Virus record (IMG/VR): IMGVR_UViG_3300031251_000970
Coordinates: 1 to 64,000 of that record
From: a virus
Reading direction: 5' to 3' (one strand)
Length of the DNA: 64,000 nt
Under the pieces are notes generated by a model. The model searched no databases, was not told the DNA's origin, and saw only the letters and a list, made by a program, of their open reading frames with translations. The position numbers and the translations under genes are program-made. This document shows, one piece after another, positions 5,278 through 63,703 of this stretch. Each line of letters starts with the position of its first letter. Positions within the stretch are counted from its first letter, which is position 1.

Positions 5278-6330
5278 CTACAATTCGCTTGGTTCTAATT
5301 CGGTCTCTTCGGTCGAATGCGGCTCGTCATCGCCGAATAGCGTTTCTTGTTCCTCGGATGTGAGATTGATCGATGCGAGATTTTTTACGGCCTGCCGATA
5401 GTAAGACGGCTTTAATTCCACACCGATTCCGAGTCGGCCATTCATGACCGCACCGGCGATTTCGCTTCCGACGCCCATGAATGGCGAGAAGACTTTCTCT
5501 CCAGGATTCGTCCACATTTCTACGCCGCGTTCGATGACATCGAGTTGCAAGGGATGTTGATGACGCTCGTCTTCCGCGTCGCGAGCTTCCTTATATTTCA
5601 GGACTCGCGATAGTCTGATGTCGTCCCACACGCACGACGCATAGTGTCGCCAAATCCAATGCGAGAAACGATTCTCCGTCTGCTTTCCTTTCCAATTCTT
5701 GAACCGATGCAGTTCCCTTGGGACTTCGCGTTCGCCGCAGTATTTCAGAAATCCATTCTCATGAGTCACCGGGATTGGATTCTCGCCTCGCTTGCGGAAT
5801 GGAATCAAATAATCCCCTGCCGCGACATTCGTTTTTGTAGAATCTTCCGTAATCTGCCGATGTGCCAACGCCTTCGCCATTGTACGGTTTCGAACTTCAA
5901 GCGGTTCTTTCCAAATGCTGATTCGCGGCAAATAGTCGAATCCGATCTTCTGATGCAGCCGAATGATGTCTCCGGGGAAATCGGAATACCCGCAGATGTT
6001 CGCACCTCCACAGGGGATGTCGGTACAATGAACCGCAGAGATTCGACCGGGAATCATGATCCGATGAATCTCTCGCACGAGAAACTCATAATGCTCGAAA
6101 AACTCCGCATACGATCGTGAATTCGAGAAGTCGCGGTCCGAACTGCTGTAATTGTAGAGGCACGATCCGCCGCCGGCTCCGCTCACGGTTCCAGCCGCTC
6201 CATCTACAGCGAACGGCGGAGAATAGATCGACATGTGAATCGATTCTGCGGGAATCGTTTGGATCATTTCCACGCAATCGCCGTTGTACAAAGCGTATTG
6301 ATCGGTGATCACTTGTTTCTTCACAGCCAT
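5278..6330 (-). CDS. DNA amino-methyltransferase (N4C/N6A family)
   Basis: GDC...YSPPF catalytic motif, HPLQLDVIER, VFSPFMGVGS SAM-binding motif. Confidence 0.9.
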   Translation of the reverse strand: MAVKKQVITDQYALYNGDCVEMIQTIPAESIHMSIYSPPFAVDGAAGTVSGAGGGSCLYNYSSSDRDFSNSRSYAEFFEHYEFLVREIHRIMIPGRISAVHCTDIPCGGANICGYSDFPGDIIRLHQKIGFDYLPRISIWKEPLEVRNRTMAKALAHRQITEDSTKTNVAAGDYLIPFRKRGENPIPVTHENGFLKYCGEREVPRELHRFKNWKGKQTENRFSHWIWRHYASCVWDDIRLSRVLKYKEARDAEDERHQHPLQLDVIERGVEMWTNPGEKVFSPFMGVGSEIAGAVMNGRLGIGVELKPSYYRQAVKNLASINLTSEEQETLFGDDEPHSTEETELEPSEL

Positions 6331-7679
6331 GCTGGCAACTCCTCTTTGATTGGGAAAATGTCTTCGTGATTGATGCGATTTGATTCGTTCATGAATTCAA
6401 CGAGTTGCGAAAACATCTCGTCAGCCTGAACTGCTTTTCGCTGATAATTCGCCCAGACTCGTTCTTCACCTTCGGTCGAAATGAAGTCACAGCGAACCGT
6501 TCGTTTTTGACCGTATCGCCAACATCGGCGAATCATTTGGTACGTCTGCTCAAACGAATGGCTGAGAAATGCAGCCATGTAGTTGCAATGCTGAAGATTC
6601 AATCCCCAGCAAGCGATCGTCGGTTTCGTCACTAACTTCGAATAGGTTCCATCGAGAAATCCGAGAAGTTTCCTTTCCTTCTCATCATCGGAATCCGCTC
6701 CGCTGACCTGCACGCATCCTTTGATCATCTTTTCGAGTAAATCGCCTTCATCGTTTAGATGACACCATGCGATTCCGAAATCATGCGGGTCGATCAGTTC
6801 GGCAACTCGCTCGCAGCGTTCTTGAATCGTTGCCCGTCGTTCCTCTCGTTGTTCTTCCAGCGTTACGGCCGGAACATCGAACAATCGTCCTTTCTGAGCA
6901 TTTCGCCGCTTGATGATCTCTTGTTCGACAACAAGCGGCGGAAGATCGAATCCTTCATCTGAGAATCCAAGATCGGAGGGTTTGCGACAGGCTCTCGCCC
7001 ACGAACAAACCCATCGCCAAAATGCTTTCTTCGCATGTTCGCGGAATCGATATTTTGATCGTCCCCATGCGTGATGACCGCCTTGTTGCTCTTGCTTGAA
7101 AAACATCGTGATCATGTCGCGATAGCCGAGTTCTCCGAGCACTTCGGAGGATGTGCCGAGTTCATGATAATCGTTTGGAGCCGCTGTCGCGGTCGCCAAT
7201 AACCGATAGGGAATCTTTCGAGTGAACTCCTTGACGATCGCTTTCGTTGCAGAATCCGCGTCTTTAAGGCGGCTCGATTCGTCGGCTACGAATCCACTGA
7301 AATCGTTCGGACTGAAATATCCTAGTCGCTCATAGTTCGTGATGACGATCTTTTGATTGATTTTGCCTTCTCTCGATACTTCGGCATTCAATCCAAACTT
7401 GCTCGCTTCTTTCGAGAATTGATGGCCGACGGCAAGAGGCGTCGAAATGAGTACGGGCTTGTTCGTATGCTCTATGACATTTTGTGCCCACACGAGCGAC
7501 TGAATACTTTTCCCCAACCCGCAATCTTCAAGTAAAGCCGATCGCCCTTTTCGGATTGACCAGCCTGTCAAACTCGACTGAAACGGAAACAAAAACTCCG
7601 GCATCCAAATCGGTTCGAAGCCGCTATCGTTGTCGATCTGGCCTTTCCGCCGAATAAACTCTTCATAATCGTCCGACAT
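6321..7679 (-). CDS. SNF2-like superfamily 2 helicase
   Basis: DCGLGKS Walker A, DESS Walker B, TATAAPND, GLNLQHC, QMIRRCWRYGQ; start moved to ATG 7679. Confidence 0.9.
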   Translation of the reverse strand: MSDDYEEFIRRKGQIDNDSGFEPIWMPEFLFPFQSSLTGWSIRKGRSALLEDCGLGKSIQSLVWAQNVIEHTNKPVLISTPLAVGHQFSKEASKFGLNAEVSREGKINQKIVITNYERLGYFSPNDFSGFVADESSRLKDADSATKAIVKEFTRKIPYRLLATATAAPNDYHELGTSSEVLGELGYRDMITMFFKQEQQGGHHAWGRSKYRFREHAKKAFWRWVCSWARACRKPSDLGFSDEGFDLPPLVVEQEIIKRRNAQKGRLFDVPAVTLEEQREERRATIQERCERVAELIDPHDFGIAWCHLNDEGDLLEKMIKGCVQVSGADSDDEKERKLLGFLDGTYSKLVTKPTIACWGLNLQHCNYMAAFLSHSFEQTYQMIRRCWRYGQKRTVRCDFISTEGEERVWANYQRKAVQADEMFSQLVEFMNESNRINHEDIFPIKEELPAWL

Positions 7680-7691
7680 TTCGATCATTCC

Positions 7692-7813
7692 AAAAAATAG
7701 ACGCCGATGATCAGTCAGCGAATTCCGCTGTCGCAAGCGACGAATCGATGCGGCAAAAGAGGCGGAATTCATGCTGGATGACTTGACCGGCAGTAACCCC
7801 GGCTCGGCGTCTA
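7692..7813 (-). ncRNA. Putative structured RNA (branched fold ending in a U-tract)
   Basis: Outer stem TAGACGCCGA/TCGGCGTCTA, arm GCCGG-GGTTACTG-CCGGT, arm GAATTCCGC/GCGGAATTC, then T6. Confidence 0.6.
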
Positions 7814-7859
7814 AGTTCACAAATATTGGGATCGCTTGTTACTGCGGAAGCGATGGATG

Positions 7860-7888
7860 TTTGTACTCGATTGCTGCTGATTGTGCAA
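7860..7888 (-). promoter_or_regulatory. Sigma70-like promoter
   Basis: TTGCAC-17-TACAAA, followed by a CAGTAAC-loop hairpin at 7831..7854. Confidence 0.5.
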
Positions 7889-7899
7889 GAACTTTCGAA

Positions 7900-8994
7900 C
7901 TATTCTTGAGCGAACGGCATGATCAGATGTTGATAGTCGCCAGAGATGAACATTGCCCGATTATCGCCGTCGATCAATTTGACTTCGACCGATGATCCTT
8001 GATCCAAATTCTTCAGCAGATCGGCGACGTATGATCCTCCGAATATGATCGTCAATGGTTCGCCGTCATCGGGAATCGGCATATCGGATTGAGCCTTTCC
8101 AATGTCTTGATCCTTGCTTTCGATGATCAACTTTCCGCCGCCGAAGATGAATGTCAATCCGGTTGATTCGGGAGTTTCCAAAACTCGCACTTGACGCACG
8201 AGAGCGGAGAATTGATTCACCGGAATCATGACCGTTCGTTTCGACTCTTCGGGCTTGACCAGAACCTTGCGATAATCCGGTAACCGCCCCTGAACTGTCT
8301 GAGACGTAATCGACACGTTGCCGATCTTGAACACGACATTGTTATTCGCACTTGCGATCCAACATGGTTCGGTATTCAAAACGCCAGCAATAATTCGCAT
8401 TGCCGCGACCGGAACAACCGGATTGACGATCGGCCATTCGGGATTATTGACCTTCGAAGCGGCCGCTTTCGCGAGCGACAATCGTCGAGAATCCGTTGAT
8501 GCGAGTGAGAGAGTTTCGCCCTCGAATTCGACCTGAATTCCGCCTAATGCGTATCGAGTCGTTTTTTCATCGACGCTGAATGATGTTCGTTTGATCCCAT
8601 CGCGAAGCGGAGTTGCCGCAACGGTGAAATAAGCATCGGCATTGAAAATCGGAATGTCCGGGAACTCTTCGGCATCCTCCAGCCCAAGATTGTAATTCGC
8701 CGATCCGCATTTGATCCGCAGCTTTTTGTCAGTGACTGTCAATGTCAATTCATCGCCGCTCGCCTCTCGCAGAATTGCCAACATCCGCGAGGAGGGAATC
8801 AGGATTTGTTCTGGTTCCCCGATGTAGGGAACATCGACCTGCATGTGAATTTCGGTATCTGACGCACTGAGAGCGATGTTTGTTCCGTCTGCGATCATGC
8901 GAACGTTCATCAAAACGGGCTTCGTCGTCTTGCTCGGCACGACCGCTGAAACGGCCGTAAAGGCATCGCTGAAAACTTTCCGACTGATCTTCAT
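7900..8994 (-). CDS. dnaN: DNA polymerase III beta sliding clamp
   Basis: 364 aa; ASDTE, EEFPDIP, RYALGG, ASTDSRRL, GRLPDY, LIMP motifs. Confidence 0.93.
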   Translation of the reverse strand: MKISRKVFSDAFTAVSAVVPSKTTKPVLMNVRMIADGTNIALSASDTEIHMQVDVPYIGEPEQILIPSSRMLAILREASGDELTLTVTDKKLRIKCGSANYNLGLEDAEEFPDIPIFNADAYFTVAATPLRDGIKRTSFSVDEKTTRYALGGIQVEFEGETLSLASTDSRRLSLAKAAASKVNNPEWPIVNPVVPVAAMRIIAGVLNTEPCWIASANNNVVFKIGNVSITSQTVQGRLPDYRKVLVKPEESKRTVMIPVNQFSALVRQVRVLETPESTGLTFIFGGGKLIIESKDQDIGKAQSDMPIPDDGEPLTIIFGGSYVADLLKNLDQGSSVEVKLIDGDNRAMFISGDYQHLIMPFAQE

Positions 8995-13055: not shown

Positions 13056-13098
13056 GATTGATTCCTGAGTTTGCGGTTACTGATTCGCACTGAGAAGA

Positions 13099-13127
13099 AT
13101 GTTACTCAAGATTTAATCGACTGTCAA
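13099..13127 (-). promoter_or_regulatory. Sigma70-like promoter
   Basis: TTGACA-17-TAACAT in an intergenic region. Confidence 0.75.
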
Positions 13128-13160
13128 TCGATTGTTCTGCAATTTTTGTGAGCTGCGGAT

Positions 13161-13770: not shown

Positions 13771-13863
13771 AAACGTCGGCGGGATTCGAACCCGCAATTG
13801 CCAGCAATCTAAGGTTTTGGCGTCCTCTTAATTGCTTGCGTCTACCAGTTCCGCCACGACATT
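13771..13863 (-). tRNA. tRNA-like gene (Leu-type D arm) with an enlarged 24-nt anticodon loop; isotype undetermined
   Basis: Acceptor AATGTCG/CGACGTT, D arm GCGGAACTGGTAGACGC, anticodon stem AGCAA/TTGCT, T arm GCGGG-TTCGAAT-CCCGC; no encoded CCA. Confidence 0.75.
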
Positions 13864-16951: not shown

Positions 16952-17146
16952 TTATCGCATCCATTCGCGAAGTTCGGATTCGTAACTCCAATCAGAACCC
17001 ACACATTTCCATATTTGAGCGGTTTTACATTGATCCGAGATTTCAAATATCGTGTGCGATTCAATTTATCGGCTCTTACGATGGCTTCGGCTTCGGTCTT
17101 CATTTCAATCCTCGCTTCGTGGTTACTGTTTCACGTCACAGCAGCA

Positions 17147-35060: not shown

Positions 35061-35095
35061 ATATTATTGTTACTGAATATTTGATTCAATTGCAA
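35061..35095 (-). promoter_or_regulatory. Sigma70-like promoter
   Basis: TTGAAT-17-TAATAT or TTGCAA-17-TAACAA in an AT-rich gap. Confidence 0.5.
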
Positions 35096-58496: not shown

Positions 58497-58536
58497 TTTA
58501 TAACTCCTTCGTTGCGGTTACTGATCGCACGAACAA

Positions 58537-58565: not shown

Positions 58566-59065
58566 CTCGCAATCGATTGACCCTCATTCGCCCATAGTCC
58601 TGACATTCCGCCATATCGTGATCCGGTCGTTCGAAATTCAGCGGTCCATTCCCAAACATCGCGAACGAAACACTGAAACTCGGCTCCGGAGAGTTCAAGT
58701 TCTGGACGCGTGTCGAACTCCGCCATGTCAATCGCGGCGTCATACGCATCGCGATAACTTTTCGGGACGACCAACTGAACGGATATTCCATTCAAAATCG
58801 TCAGATGATCGCTGAACTGATCGGCCGTATCGGCTGTGAAGGAATTGATCTTCGCGATGATCCTGGATTTCTGTTCGGCGATTTGCGAATCCAGATTGCG
58901 AAATGTGGCCTCCACTTTTTCGAGTGATTGAGCGACATAGCCTTTCATCGCCTCGTCGAACAGCAGTACGTGCCGTTCGCGATTTGCCTTGAGTGTTTCG
59001 ATCAGTCTCAGCCGGTCAACGACGACGGTTCTATTCATCTGATTGCTTAATGCTCGGTTTGCCAT
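58562..59065 (-). CDS. Phage hypothetical protein
   Basis: L..L..NR..H...P.SY..AYD..I.M...F..FVRD.W.W; AAGGA RBS. Confidence 0.7.
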   Translation of the reverse strand: MANRALSNQMNRTVVVDRLRLIETLKANRERHVLLFDEAMKGYVAQSLEKVEATFRNLDSQIAEQKSRIIAKINSFTADTADQFSDHLTILNGISVQLVVPKSYRDAYDAAIDMAEFDTRPELELSGAEFQCFVRDVWEWTAEFRTTGSRYGGMSGLWANEGQSIAS

Positions 59066-61970: not shown

Positions 61971-62047
61971 TCTGTTTTCCCTGTTCAGGAGTCTCACGCA
62001 ATTCGTCGAGCACGGTTACTGTTTCGTGTTCGCGTCGTGATGAAATA

Positions 62048-62076
62048 ATGTTATCGAAGTTTATCGGATTTGTCAA
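62048..62076 (-). promoter_or_regulatory. Sigma70-like promoter
   Basis: TTGACA-17-TAACAT. Confidence 0.75.
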
Positions 62077-63425
62077 ACGTATTCTTCTGGAATTTTCTCG
62101 AATAGTGAGCAGAATTCCAAATGATCATCGACGCTTGTTCCGGTTTCGATGCAATAGGCTCGCCATTCTGCGGCCTCGGGAACTGTGCGATACCATGCTT
62201 TGAGGTCGAATGATTTAATCGATTTCTTCTCGGGATCGCGGATAATCGACTCGCTGACAGACAAATCTGCCGATCTTCCCTTATTTTCTCGAAATCCGAA
62301 TTGCTTATAGAACTCAATAAGTCGTTTTCGGCTCGACGCCCCGAAATCCGTACTCGGCGACAATGCGATTCTCTGCCCTGTATGATCAGCGTATTCGATA
62401 ATCTCTCGCATCGCCGTACTTCCAATTCCTGTCCCTCGATTTTCCTTCGGAACGACGATCTTATCCAACTTGATCAGGCCATTCTTCTCGTGAATCCAAT
62501 GACTCACTCCCATGCCCGTCAGTCGTTTTTCTAGATCATCGATCGTTGTCGCCGGATGCGTTCCGCTTCCGCTGCTTGTCCATTTTCCATCCTCCGTTCG
62601 AGGTTCGGATACATTGAACGCCTTCAGGCTTTTCGAATCCGAATCGATGATTCGGCCGATCGCTTCGAAGACGGGGACCAGGGCGTAGTCAACCCAACAG
62701 CGGTCATGCGGGTGGCAAGGCGGTCCCTCACTTAGTCTCCAAGGCCAATCTTTCCGCTTCACTCGATTGACGGATCGGCACAGCGGACAGACTTTTCCGT
62801 CCGGAACGCCTGGCGAAATCTCAGTAACCCGCCATAAATCATCCTCGCTGATTCCAACTGTTTCTTCGACAGCCGATTCACCTCCGGCGTGCCTCGCCCG
62901 CGTCGTCTCATCCACCGCATTGACCTCAATTCGCTTCGGACCGAACGCATCGAAAAGGATGTCTTTCAATTCCTCTTTCGTCGGTTCGTAGTATCGATCG
63001 ATCGTTCGATTTGCGGGAATCATCCGATTCGATTCGCGAGCCGCCTCGATCGTTTCTTCCTCCGCATCGCGTTTTTCCTGATCCAACTTAGCGAATGCTT
63101 TTTCCAGTCGCTCTTTTGTCGACGTCGCCCAATACTTCGAGAACTCTGCCGATCGCTTGTGTGCCCAGCCAAAAGCCGCGAGGTTCGCTTGTGGACCGCT
63201 CCAGCCATGATACTCGGCAGAATCATCGAAGATCAGCAGCAAGAGGACATACATCGTCGAATCGACTTCCCGCTGAACTTTGTCCCAAAATGACTGCGGG
63301 ACATTGTCCATGTCGGGAGGATCGCCAAGCAGTTCCTCGAACTCTCGCATGTGCCGGCGAGCGACTGCCCCGAACTTTCGGGCAAATCTTGCTTCCAGGT
63401 CATCGCGATTCGGTAACTCTGCCAT
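62073..63425 (-). CDS. MuF-like minor head protein with C-terminal GNAT-like domain
   Basis: ETTRA...VCPLC...PPCHPHDRC MuF motifs; IVVPKENRGTGIGS...L.EFYKQFGF GNAT motifs; start moved to 63425. Confidence 0.8.
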   Translation of the reverse strand: MAELPNRDDLEARFARKFGAVARRHMREFEELLGDPPDMDNVPQSFWDKVQREVDSTMYVLLLLIFDDSAEYHGWSGPQANLAAFGWAHKRSAEFSKYWATSTKERLEKAFAKLDQEKRDAEEETIEAARESNRMIPANRTIDRYYEPTKEELKDILFDAFGPKRIEVNAVDETTRARHAGGESAVEETVGISEDDLWRVTEISPGVPDGKVCPLCRSVNRVKRKDWPWRLSEGPPCHPHDRCWVDYALVPVFEAIGRIIDSDSKSLKAFNVSEPRTEDGKWTSSGSGTHPATTIDDLEKRLTGMGVSHWIHEKNGLIKLDKIVVPKENRGTGIGSTAMREIIEYADHTGQRIALSPSTDFGASSRKRLIEFYKQFGFRENKGRSADLSVSESIIRDPEKKSIKSFDLKAWYRTVPEAAEWRAYCIETGTSVDDHLEFCSLFEKIPEEYV

Positions 63426-63427
63426 TT

Positions 63428-63703
63428 TCAATCCCTTGAGCATTTGCAGAGAGCGATCACAAGATAACCCTCGCTGGATTCCATCATCGCCGCGAATGTC
63501 ACTCCGTCTGGAGTTTCGCAAACCTTCAATGGAATTCCATCGAATTGCGTCTCATCATCAGCGAGTTCGAGTTGATTGAAAATCGATCTTACCGCAAAAA
63601 TTCTATCCGGCCGCTTATGATGTCGCTTCTCGACTTCGGCAATGGAGGCCAAAACCGCATCTCGCACGGAACCAGACTCCAATACAAATCGGCCTGTTTC
63701 CAT
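63428..63703 (-). CDS. Hypothetical protein
   Basis: GGAGAG RBS; TAATG-coupled. Confidence 0.6.
   Translation of the reverse strand: METGRFVLESGSVRDAVLASIAEVEKRHHKRPDRIFAVRSIFNQLELADDETQFDGIPLKVCETPDGVTFAAMMESSEGYLVIALCKCSRD

What the first reader, a model, noticed from the sequence alone, without database searches (positions are those of the whole stretch)
7692..7854. Structured ~120-nt RNA displays the complement (GGTTACTG) of the leader loops: candidate antisense or kissing-loop regulator
Seen: between dnaN and the helicase gene, the minus strand can fold into a branched RNA with a 10-bp outer stem TAGACGCCGA/TCGGCGTCTA followed by U6. One arm is GCCGG-GGTTACTG-CCGGT, whose loop is complementary to CAGTAACC in four distant leaders and to the CAGTAAC loop about 40 nt upstream in its own leader. 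Established: P1/P7 C4 RNA and P4 CI RNA are branched RNAs whose unpaired segments pair with short leader targets to control termination and immunity. Inference: this may be an analogous but sequence-distinct RNA switch acting in cis on the helicase-methylase genes and in trans on several operons. No CI-type repressor is evident in this window.
Basis: partly seen in the sequence, partly recalled or inferred. Interest (0 to 1): 0.85.

Follow-up and report, generated by a model that had tools for sequence, protein, structure and literature searches.

The report
Conserved anti-loop RNA in phage leader
The untranslated stretch in front of this soil phage's helicase gene folds into a three-armed RNA, also present in one distant relative, and one of its loops is the exact mirror of a tag hairpin found at the start of six to eight phage transcripts, so it may control them all by RNA-RNA pairing, though no transcript has been seen.

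Summary
Window 7692..7854 (minus strand) lies in a 220-nt non-coding spacer between dnaN and an SF2 helicase gene. It holds a leader hairpin with a CAGTAAC loop, followed by a three-way junction. P1 is TAGACGCCGA/TCGGCGTCTA plus U6. P2 is GCCGG-GGTTACTG-CCGGT. P3 is a long arm.

The CAGTAAC hairpin is a real family: 6 promoter-proximal copies in this 81.9-kb provirus.

The key new result is a distant syntenic phage, G001 (DnaN 44%, helicase 49% identity). It has the same spacer layout: a CAGTAAC leader hairpin, a three-way junction and a GTTACTG loop in P2. It also has 7-8 CAGTAAC leader hairpins of its own. Loop and anti-loop are the best-conserved segments of a spacer that is otherwise about 42% identical. 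Stems differ but keep pairing, and G·U pairs make the fold specific to the sense strand.

The U6 'terminator' is not conserved. Rfam gives no hit, so this is not a C4 family member.

Both phages have the same loop pair, so loop/anti-loop covariation could not be tested. No RNA data exist.

Best reading (about 0.5): a kissing-loop regulatory RNA that works like P4 CI or P1 C4. The scan has noted analogous anti-leader RNAs in other phages. Interest is moderate to high.

The parts
7900..8994 (-). dnaN (DNA polymerase III beta clamp), the gene upstream of the spacer
   Evidence: Pfam DNA_pol3_beta N-terminal, central and C-terminal domains, E 6.7e-25 to 1.4e-12.
7860..7888 (-). Weak promoter-like hexamers TTGCAC (7888..7883), 17-nt spacer, TACAAA (7865..7860), read by eye
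   Evidence: Read. It does NOT pass the consensus scan, which found 0 promoter-like sites in 7500..8100. The equivalent site in L252 (TTGACA at 7096) also fails the scan. The leader may therefore be read through from the dnaN operon, whose promoter ends at 13099.
7831..7854 (-). P0: leader hairpin ATCGCTT-ccgCAGTAAC-AAGCGAT, a member of the CAGTAAC-loop hairpin family
   Evidence: In the 81.9-kb record, 7 of 8 minus-strand CAGTAAC copies sit in loops of hairpins with at least 4 bp.
7804..7813 (-). P1 5' strand, TAGACGCCGA
   Evidence: It aligns with the inner P1 of L252: 11 pairs, of which 3 changed on both sides, 3 on one side and 0 are broken.
7786..7803 (-). P2: anti-loop hairpin GCCGG-GGUUACUG-CCGGU. 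The loop at 7798..7791 is complementary to CAGUAAC(C).
   Evidence: It is conserved in L252 as GCGGG-AGTTACTG-CCTGT. It is the best-conserved 12-mer of the spacer, 11 of 12. Loop P(unpaired) is 0.92.
7710..7782 (-). P3: long third arm, including the 9-bp stem GAATTCCGC/GCGGAATTC
   Evidence: MFE fold. L252 has a long arm in the same position with a different sequence.
7698..7707 (-). P1 3' strand, TCGGCGTCTA
7692..7697 (-). U6 tract directly after P1. With P1 it looks like a terminator, but only in this phage.
   Evidence: It is absent in L252. The consensus scan calls only an alternative 6-bp hairpin plus this T-run.
6321..7679 (-). SF2/SNF2-like helicase, 452 aa, true start ATG 7679
   Evidence: The closest homologues are 452 aa, and most listed homologues cover about 90-91% of the GTG-7820 ORF. 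Weak SNF2-rel_dom hit.
5278..6330 (-). N6/N4 DNA methylase, overlapping the helicase stop
   Evidence: Pfam N6_N4_Mtase, E 1.1e-14.
13072..13089 (-). Leader hairpin TGCG-aatCAGTAAC-CGCA, 10 nt after a TTGACA-17-TAACAT promoter
17118..17135 (-). Leader hairpin CGTG-aaaCAGTAAC-CACG, followed by GAGGA and then ATG 17103
58513..58529 (-). Leader hairpin TGCG-atCAGTAAC-CGCA, 8 nt after a TTGACA-17-TAATAT promoter and upstream of the 131-aa gene
   Evidence: The orthologous gene in G001 carries the hairpin too.
62011..62028 (-). Leader hairpin CACG-aaaCAGTAAC-CGTG after a TTGACA-17-TAACAT promoter, upstream of the MTESTLILH... gene
   Evidence: The G001 gene beginning MSESTLILH also carries the hairpin.

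Best explanation
The 220-nt spacer between dnaN and the helicase gene encodes a conserved sense-strand RNA domain. It has a 5' hairpin (P0) whose loop carries the phage's 'tag' CAGUAAC, followed by a three-way junction (P1-P2-P3). The 8-nt P2 loop displays the exact complement, GUUACUG.

The same tag hairpin sits at or near the 5' end of at least 5 other transcripts in this phage, directly after sigma70-like promoters. It is also found on 7-8 leaders in the only known relative.

The most likely mechanism (inferred, not shown) is as follows. The P2 loop forms a 7-8-bp loop-loop ('kissing') complex with CAGUAAC hairpins. The partner may be its own P0 in cis, the other tagged leaders in trans after release of the junction RNA, or both. 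Release could be by termination at U6 in this phage, or by cleavage in the long P1 duplex in the relative. This would couple or shut down the tagged early/replication operons. The logic is that of P4 CI RNA and P1/P7 C4 RNA, but the RNA is unrelated to either.

Shown: the fold, its conservation, its strand specificity, the tag family, and the conservation of both complementary loops.

Inferred: transcription of the domain, the pairing itself, action in trans, and the regulatory outcome.
For: 1. The fold is as described, z = -3.0. The spacer is non-coding.
2. Distant syntenic relative L252/G001. ERF, YqaJ, RuvC, DnaN, helicase and methylase are 32-56% identical and in the same order. Its 216-nt spacer has the hairpin TCGTG-acaCAGTAACa-CACGA, then a long P1, then P2 as GCGGG-AGTTACTG-CCTGT, then a long P3. 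Its fold is -84.9 kcal/mol, z = -5.4, with 0 of 200 shuffles as good.
3. RNAalifold on the two spacers recovers P0, P1 and P2. Of 21 pairs, 5 changed on both sides, 4 on one side, and 0 are broken.
4. The two best-conserved 12-mers of the spacer are the anti-loop (11 of 12) and the leader loop (10 of 12). The rest is 42% identical.
5. The tag family is real.
   - In G000, 7 of 8 minus-strand CAGTAAC copies lie in hairpin loops. No 7-mer exceeds 4-5 in 10 block-shuffled genomes.
   - Six copies have covarying stems upstream of start codons.
   - Three follow 10/12 sigma70-like promoters.
   - In G001, 7 clear and 1 imperfect hairpins are found among 10 forward CAGTAAC copies.
   - At least three orthologous positions are tagged in both phages.
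6. The anti-loop is predicted to be unpaired: P = 0.92 in G000 and 0.84 in G001, against a mean of 0.38 and 0.34.
7. G·U pairs in P2 and P1 of G001 become C·A mismatches on the other strand, so the fold is specific to the sense strand (read).
8. If an 8-nt loop were conserved for unrelated reasons, it would contain the complement of a given 7-mer with probability about 2 x 4^-7, roughly 1e-4 (own arithmetic).
Against: - There is no covariation test of the pairing. Both phages have the same CAGTAAC/GTTACTG pair, and only two members of the lineage could be found.
- The position next to the 7-mer does not co-vary. The loop is G-GUUACUG in G000 and A-GUUACUG in G001, while the base after CAGTAAC in G001 leaders is A, C or T.
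- The P2 stem and its flanks are also conserved in sequence (GAGC.GG.GTTACTGCC.GT.AAG). A pure kissing loop does not require this, so a protein partner or a tertiary contact is possible.
- U6 is not conserved.
- No promoter passes the consensus scan in either spacer.
- Tag stems in G000 are only 4 bp with 9-10-nt loops, so they are marginally stable on their own.
- In G001, P0 sits at the far end of a roughly 30-bp P1. Cis kissing and a fully formed P1 therefore look mutually exclusive (inference).
- Under loose criteria, loop/anti-loop 7-mer pairs occur in 15 of 239 in-gene control windows and in 27 of 204 helicase-upstream windows of unrelated phages.
Confidence: 0.5

Rival explanations
1. 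The element is a cis-only leader: a processing, stability or translation-control structure for the helicase-methylase genes. One possibility is an RNase III-type site in the long P1 duplex. Another is an attenuator that occludes the GGAA ribosome-binding region. In this reading the CAGUAAC tag hairpins are read by a phage protein, for example an antiterminator or an mRNA-stabilising or translation factor. The P2 loop then masks only its own P0, or is conserved for a tertiary or protein contact.
For: - The element lies inside a polycistronic replication operon (promoter at 13099), with no scan-positive promoter of its own.
- P1 in G001 is a 19 + 11-bp near-perfect duplex, as long as known RNase III substrates (recalled).
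- In G000 the MFE extends P1 over the U-run and GGAAUG just upstream of the start codon.
- P2 stem and flank sequences are conserved beyond what kissing needs.
- In G001 all 8 tagged promoters also carry an AATC-N5-GATT palindrome, so a protein regulator of the regulon exists anyway.
Against: - It does not explain why the conserved P2 loop is the exact complement of the regulon tag. The chance is about 1e-4 if the two are unrelated.
- The ribosome-binding site of the G001 helicase (AGGGA) lies outside P1, so RBS occlusion is not conserved.
- No candidate RNA-binding protein was identified.
Confidence: 0.3
2. The 'anti-loop' is simply an inverted copy of the CAGTAAC hairpin site, read on the opposite strand as DNA (hairpin or cruciform) or as an antisense transcript by the same factor that reads the other copies. 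No RNA-RNA pairing is involved.
For: - On the + strand, 7788..7803 reads CCGG-CAGTAACC-CCGG, a hairpin with the tag in its loop.
- A DNA site and its reverse complement are the same site.
Against: - In G001 the opposite-strand version (ACAGG-CAGTAACT-CCCGC) has two C·A mismatches in a 5-bp stem, whereas the sense strand forms 5 pairs with G·U.
- The tag's register differs from the family. The opposite-strand copy has 0 nt before the motif and 1 after. Family members have 1-8 nt before and mostly 0 after.
- No promoter-like site on the + strand is called in 7500..8100.
- In G001, family copies on both sides of the inverted copy keep the transcription orientation, so there is no polarity switch of the kind expected at a replication origin.
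Confidence: 0.07
3. The element has no function: chance complementarity in a spacer that is structured for trivial reasons, a coding N-terminal extension of the helicase, or a small mobile element with 10-bp terminal inverted repeats.
For: - The GTG-7820 ORF is open through the element.
- One complement 8-mer per strand of a 64-kb window is not rare, and a second GGTTACTG lies in a coding region.
- The loose screen has a 6-13% background.
Against: - Helicase homologues do not cover the extension.
- There is no second copy of any part of the element in the 81.9-kb record. Only the self-hit is found, and all other matches are 13 nt or shorter.
- The fold and both loops are conserved in a relative whose spacer is otherwise about 42% identical.
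Confidence: 0.04

Closest known systems
P4 CI immunity RNA (with its targets seqA and seqC)
   Same: It is an untranslated RNA made from the leader of the operon that carries the phage's replication genes. It carries a segment complementary to a short site located upstream on the same leader transcript. [quoted passage not shown]
   Different: - No sequence or Rfam relationship.
- Only an upstream target is present in the same leader. No CAGTAAC follows the element before the helicase.
- The complementary site is a 7-nt hairpin loop repeated on 5-7 other operons, not two sites in one leader.
- The terminator-like U6 is present in one of the two phages only.
- Processing and termination are untested.
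P1/P7 C4 antisense RNA (Rfam RF01695, 'c4 antisense RNA' with the c4-a1b1 target motif; listed in a table of PMC2864571, passage seen)
   Same: A branched phage RNA encoded in the leader of the operon it controls. Its unpaired segments pair with short target sites in the same transcript. Specificity is set by a few loop nucleotides (the mechanism is recalled, not read here).
   Different: - cmscan finds no C4 match at the gathering threshold in the window or at E <= 10 in 7600..7950.
- The downstream genes are a helicase and a methylase, not icd/ant.
- Targets are dispersed over the genome.
Loop-loop ('kissing') antisense control such as ColE1 RNA I/RNA II and R1 CopA/CopT (recalled, no paper read)
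   Same: Recognition through 6-7 complementary nucleotides displayed in two hairpin loops.
   Different: Those pairs are transcribed from opposite strands of one locus and are fully complementary. Here the complement is on the same strand and limited to 7-8 nt.
Anti-leader or kissing-loop RNAs noted earlier by this scan in other phages (e1-5800342, e1-6070481, e1-3291353; AI notes)
   Same: The concept is the same: one phage RNA whose loop mirrors a motif shared by many leaders, or a 5' hairpin loop pairing with the loop of a downstream terminator hairpin.
   Different: Different genomes and sequences. Their claims were not checked here. In this case the motif is in the loop of a 5'-terminal hairpin rather than at the ribosome-binding site.

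Membership tests
C4 antisense RNA (Rfam RF01695) | Match to the family covariance model | tested here: not met
   cmscan of the whole window at gathering scores finds only a tRNA. cmscan of 7600..7950 at E <= 10 finds only a chance miRNA hit at E 5.2.
C4 antisense RNA (Rfam RF01695) | Encoded in the leader of an icd/ant (antirepressor) operon | tested here: not met
   The downstream genes are an SF2 helicase and an N6/N4 methylase.
C4 antisense RNA / P4 CI RNA (functional class) | Complementary target site on the same leader transcript | tested here: met
   CAGTAAC in the P0 loop lies 47 nt upstream of GTTACTG in the P2 loop. The distance is 50 nt in L252.
C4 antisense RNA / P4 CI RNA (functional class) | Discrete processed RNA species (RNase P-dependent) that causes termination or translational block | not testable with these tools
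   No RNA run holds the sequence. Only DNA contigs could be laid.
P4 CI RNA | Second target (seqC) downstream of the RNA | tested here: not met
   No minus-strand CAGTAAC lies downstream of the element, between 7690 and the window start.
Intrinsic (Rho-independent) terminator | GC-rich stem directly followed by a U-run, conserved in relatives | tested here: inconclusive
   G000 has a 10-bp P1 plus U6, but P1 encloses 95 nt. The scan calls only an alternative 6-bp hairpin. G001 has no U-run after P1 and no terminator-like site.
RNase III processing site (T7 R-site or lambda N-leader type) | About 20 bp or more of near-continuous duplex | tested here: inconclusive
   G001 P1 is 19 + 11 bp with a 1-nt bulge. 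G000 P1 is 10 bp plus 3 + 5 bp extensions separated by 2-nt internal loops. Cleavage is not testable here.
CAGTAAC-loop 5' hairpin family of this phage lineage (for P0) | Stem of 4 bp or more with variable, covarying sequence; loop ending in CAGTAAC; sense strand; upstream of a start codon | tested here: met
   P0 is ATCGCTT-ccgCAGTAAC-AAGCGAT. The G001 counterpart is TCGTG-acaCAGTAACa-CACGA.

The most novel reading that the evidence does not exclude
A previously unseen RNA-based master switch. One about 115-nt three-way-junction RNA, made from the replication-operon leader, addresses a whole regulon of 6-8 phage operons through a 7-nt 'zip code' displayed in 5'-terminal hairpin loops. It would act as the phage's immunity or early-shut-off factor. 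This generalises the single-operon logic of P4 CI and P1 C4 to genome-wide control by kissing loops.
Probability: 0.3. Interest if true: 0.8.

Novelty: new variant of a known kind. Interest (0 to 1): 0.62.

Why it matters
Phage regulatory RNAs that act on several operons at once are known from very few systems, and the classical ones (P1 C4, P4 CI) act on a single leader. This uncultured rhizosphere phage lineage shows three linked features:
- a conserved 'tag' hairpin at the 5' end of many transcripts;
- a single conserved RNA that displays the tag's complement;
- in the relative, a common DNA operator on the same promoters.

If the pairing is real, the system is a compact and testable case of regulon-wide control by a 7-nt loop-loop code. 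The RNA family is not in Rfam.

If the pairing is not used, the tag hairpins still define a new phage cis-element whose reader is unknown.

Tried and rejected
**Search for relatives.** Only G001 shares the element.
- Helicase, single protein, viral contigs: no relative.
- Helicase alignment A1:
  - Genome contigs: at most 56%.
- blastn and nhmmer of the spacer against the 244 loci held at that point (1.7 Mb) gave only the 4 chance pattern hits.
- Exact or degenerate DNA patterns in viral contigs:
  - Leader hairpin 18-mer: 0 hits.
  - P2 18-mer: 4 hits, all in unrelated contexts that look coding by eye.
  - P2 consensus 24-mer: G001 only.
  - Leader loop, gap, then P2: G001 plus 2 hits in unrelated sequence without dnaN or helicase.
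- DnaN alignment A2: 19 loci, of which only L252 has the dnaN-spacer-helicase arrangement.
- G002 has a 48%-identical helicase but no spacer.
- Alignment of the 131-aa orthologues: G001 only.
- INPHARED phages: no DNA match, and DnaN at most 28% identical.

**Closest relatives out of reach.** The nearest helicase relatives are 77% and 73% identical (Logan sources). The nearest DnaN relatives are 39-43% identical.

**Sequencing runs.** No RNA holder is listed. Three DNA rhizosphere runs hold the stretch or part of it: one is probably the source, one holds identical fragments, and one holds a small share. No variants were seen in the spacer.

**Other steps that led nowhere.**
- RNA duplex energies between the junction RNA and the leaders were uninformative, because duplexfold ignores intramolecular structure.
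- The background run of that analysis timed out.
- The literature search for the motif found nothing relevant.
- The phage-sRNA review section that I read does not mention C4.

**Readings rejected.**
- N-terminal extension of the helicase.
- MITE or repeat element.
- Replication-polarity signal.
- Family members with one mismatch: none convincing.

**Not examined.** Whether the phage has a protein repressor; the identity of any protein that reads the hairpins. Supplementary files of papers were not consulted.

Full report
**Setting.** The window is the first 64 kb of an 81,876-bp IMG/VR record classed as a provirus. Three rhizosphere DNA runs hold it. Nearly all genes are on the minus strand. 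Around the finding lie ERF, a YqaJ exonuclease, RuvC, dnaN (7900..8994), an SF2/SNF2-like helicase and an N6/N4 methylase. An in-frame GTG ORF (6321..7820) runs through the element. However, most listed helicase homologues cover only about 90-91% of it, and the closest are 452 aa long. The helicase therefore starts at ATG 7679, and 7680..7899 is a 220-nt non-coding spacer.

**Observation.**
- P0 hairpin ATCGCTT-ccgCAGTAAC-AAGCGAT (7854..7831).
- A 17-nt linker.
- P1, TAGACGCCGA (7813..7804) paired with TCGGCGTCTA (7707..7698).
- P2, GCCGG-GGTTACTG-CCGGT (7803..7786), directly after the P1 5' strand.
- A CAA linker, then a long P3 arm (7782..7710), then CA, then the P1 3' strand.
- T6 (7697..7692), followed by GGAATGATCGAAATG.

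RNAfold gives this three-way junction as the MFE: -59.8 kcal/mol, z = -3.0, with 1 of 200 shuffles as good. CAGTAACC occurs 6 times in the window against 0.36 expected, and CAGTAAC 11 times against 1.5.

**The tag hairpin family.** A script that looks for AGTAAC flanked by a stem of 4 bp or more finds minus-strand hairpins at 64533, 62020, 58522, 17127, 13081 and 7843.
- Their stems differ but keep pairing: CACG/CGTG twice, TGCG/CGCA twice, CGTG/CACG, ATCGCTT/AAGCGAT.
- A seventh site, at 35074, overlaps a promoter-like -10 and is not counted.
- In the whole record, 7 of 8 minus-strand CAGTAAC copies lie in loops of Watson-Crick hairpins with at least 4 bp. No 7-mer exceeds 4-5 such loop occurrences in 10 block-shuffled genomes.
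- Each hairpin is 10-40 nt upstream of a start codon.
- Three hairpins directly follow promoter-like sites matching 10 of 12 consensus positions: TTGACA-17-TAACAT or TAATAT, ending at 62048, 58537 and 13099.
- The other three, including the helicase leader (TTGCAC-17-TACAAA, read by eye), do not pass the scan.

**The decisive comparison.** DnaN has no close homologue among 5.8 billion proteins; the best is 43% identical. An alignment-based scan of IMG/VR found 19 loci. One of them, L252, is syntenic. It belongs to G001, a complete 105,647-bp phage with terminal repeats.
- Shared proteins: ERF 32%, YqaJ 56%, RuvC 48%, DnaN 44%, helicase 49%, methylase 43% identity.
- Its dnaN and helicase are separated by 216 nt.
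- That spacer contains TTGACA at the dnaN stop, the hairpin TCGTG-acaCAGTAACa-CACGA, a long P1 (19 + 11 bp), P2 as GCGGG-AGTTACTG-CCTGT directly after P1, a TAA linker, a long P3, AT, and the P1 3' strand.
- It folds at -84.9 kcal/mol, z = -5.4, with 0 of 200 shuffles as good.

The junction layout is therefore the same in both phages: P1, 0 nt, P2, 3 nt (YAA), P3, 2 nt, P1.
- RNAalifold on the two spacers recovers P0, P1 and P2. Of 21 pairs, 5 changed on both sides, 4 on one side, and none is broken.
- In the MAFFT alignment, the best-conserved 12-mers are the anti-loop (11 of 12) and the leader loop (10 of 12). The remaining 142 columns are 42% identical.
- The anti-loop is predicted to be unpaired with P = 0.92 in G000 and 0.84 in G001.
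- Several pairs in G001 are G·U: three in the inner P1 and two in P2. On the other strand they would be C·A mismatches, so the fold belongs to the sense-strand RNA.

**The regulon is conserved too.** Of 10 forward-strand CAGTAAC copies in G001, 7 are clean hairpin loops with stems of 4-8 bp that all differ. One further copy has an imperfect stem. Orthologous genes carry the tag in both phages: the 131-aa gene (49% identity), the gene beginning M(T/S)ESTLILH, and the helicase.

**What is not conserved or not shown.**
- The U6 tract is absent in G001, and no terminator-like site is called there. Termination at P1 therefore cannot be the conserved function.
- No promoter in either spacer passes the consensus scan. 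The domain may be transcribed as part of the operon that starts at 13099.
- Both phages have the same loop/anti-loop pair, so the pairing cannot be tested by covariation.
- The base next to the 7-mer does not co-vary.
- The P2 stem and flanks are conserved in sequence, which suggests an additional constraint.
- In G001, P0 sits at the distal end of a roughly 30-bp P1. Cis kissing would therefore compete with a fully formed P1 (inference).
- No RNA run holds the sequence, and the DNA runs show no variants.
- A loose screen shows that loop/anti-loop 7-mer pairs are not rare by chance: 15 of 239 in-gene control windows, and 27 of 204 helicase-upstream windows of unrelated phages. The argument therefore rests on the motif being the regulon tag and on its conservation.

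**Mechanism.** The reading I favour (0.5) is a regulatory RNA whose P2 loop kisses CAGUAAC hairpins, in cis on its own leader and/or in trans on the other tagged leaders. The junction RNA could be released by termination at U6 in G000, or by cleavage of the long P1 duplex in G001.

An 8-nt loop conserved for unrelated reasons would carry the complement of a given 7-mer with probability of about 1e-4.

Rivals:
- A cis-only processing or translation-control structure, with a protein reading the tags (0.3).
- An inverted copy of the site read on the other strand (0.07). This is disfavoured by the G·U pairs, the different register and the lack of a + strand promoter.
- No function, a coding extension or a mobile element (0.04). 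This is disfavoured and by the conservation.

**Comparison with known systems.** No Rfam family matches, either at gathering scores over the window or at E <= 10 over 7600..7950. The element is therefore not a member of the C4 family (RF01695, listed in a table of PMC2864571; passage seen).

It works most like P4 CI RNA, as described in a passage of PMC4825925. CI RNA is processed from an untranslated leader of the replication genes and pairs with short sites in the same leader. Three things differ here: the target is a hairpin loop, it is repeated on 5-7 other operons, and no downstream target exists in the same leader.

The scan has earlier noted conceptually similar anti-leader or kissing-loop RNAs in other phages (e1-5800342, e1-6070481, e1-3291353). 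I did not check those notes.

**Verdict.** The element is a new, uncatalogued, conserved phage RNA domain. It is most likely a new variant of leader-encoded antisense control, with an unusually broad predicted target set. Only two members are known, and there are no expression data.

Noticed in passing
G001 loci L271, L273, L275-L278, L280 and L252:7101-7113: All 8 tagged promoters of the relative phage carry a palindrome AATC-N5-GATT 42-71 nt upstream of CAGTAAC. In most it lies just upstream of the -35 hexamer, but in the dnaN-helicase spacer it lies between -35 and -10. The two non-hairpin CAGTAAC sites lack it. This is probably the operator of a DNA-binding regulator of the same regulon. 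No equivalent motif sits at the G000 promoters.
   Followed up: partly
window 13125-13134 and 58570-58579: The palindrome CAATCGATTG lies at or just upstream of the TTGACA -35 of two tagged promoters. It occurs 4 times in the record. It may be an operator.
   Followed up: no
window 62822-62829 (minus strand): A second GGTTACTG, flanked by TGGCG/CGCCA, lies inside the 482-aa ORF 62073..63521 (codons W-R-V-T-E-I-S). No counterpart was found at the other GTTACTG site of G001. It is probably chance.
   Followed up: partly
window 13771-13863 (minus strand): The only Rfam gathering-level hit in the window is a tRNA: 37.1 bits over a 93-nt span.
   Followed up: no
G000 record, about 69374 (+ strand, beyond the window): A hairpin TTTGT-cgcCAGTTAC-GCGAA, one mismatch from the tag, follows a TTGACT hexamer on the opposite strand. 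It may be a diverged tag on a plus-strand operon.
   Followed up: no
Helicase homologues P0010 and P0093: Two homologues of 815 and 839 aa carry PF14528, presumably an intein or homing-endonuclease-type insertion in this helicase family.
   Followed up: no
window 7771-7995 (+ strand): A 74-aa ATG ORF lies antisense to the spacer and the dnaN 3' end. There is no evidence that it is a gene.
   Followed up: no
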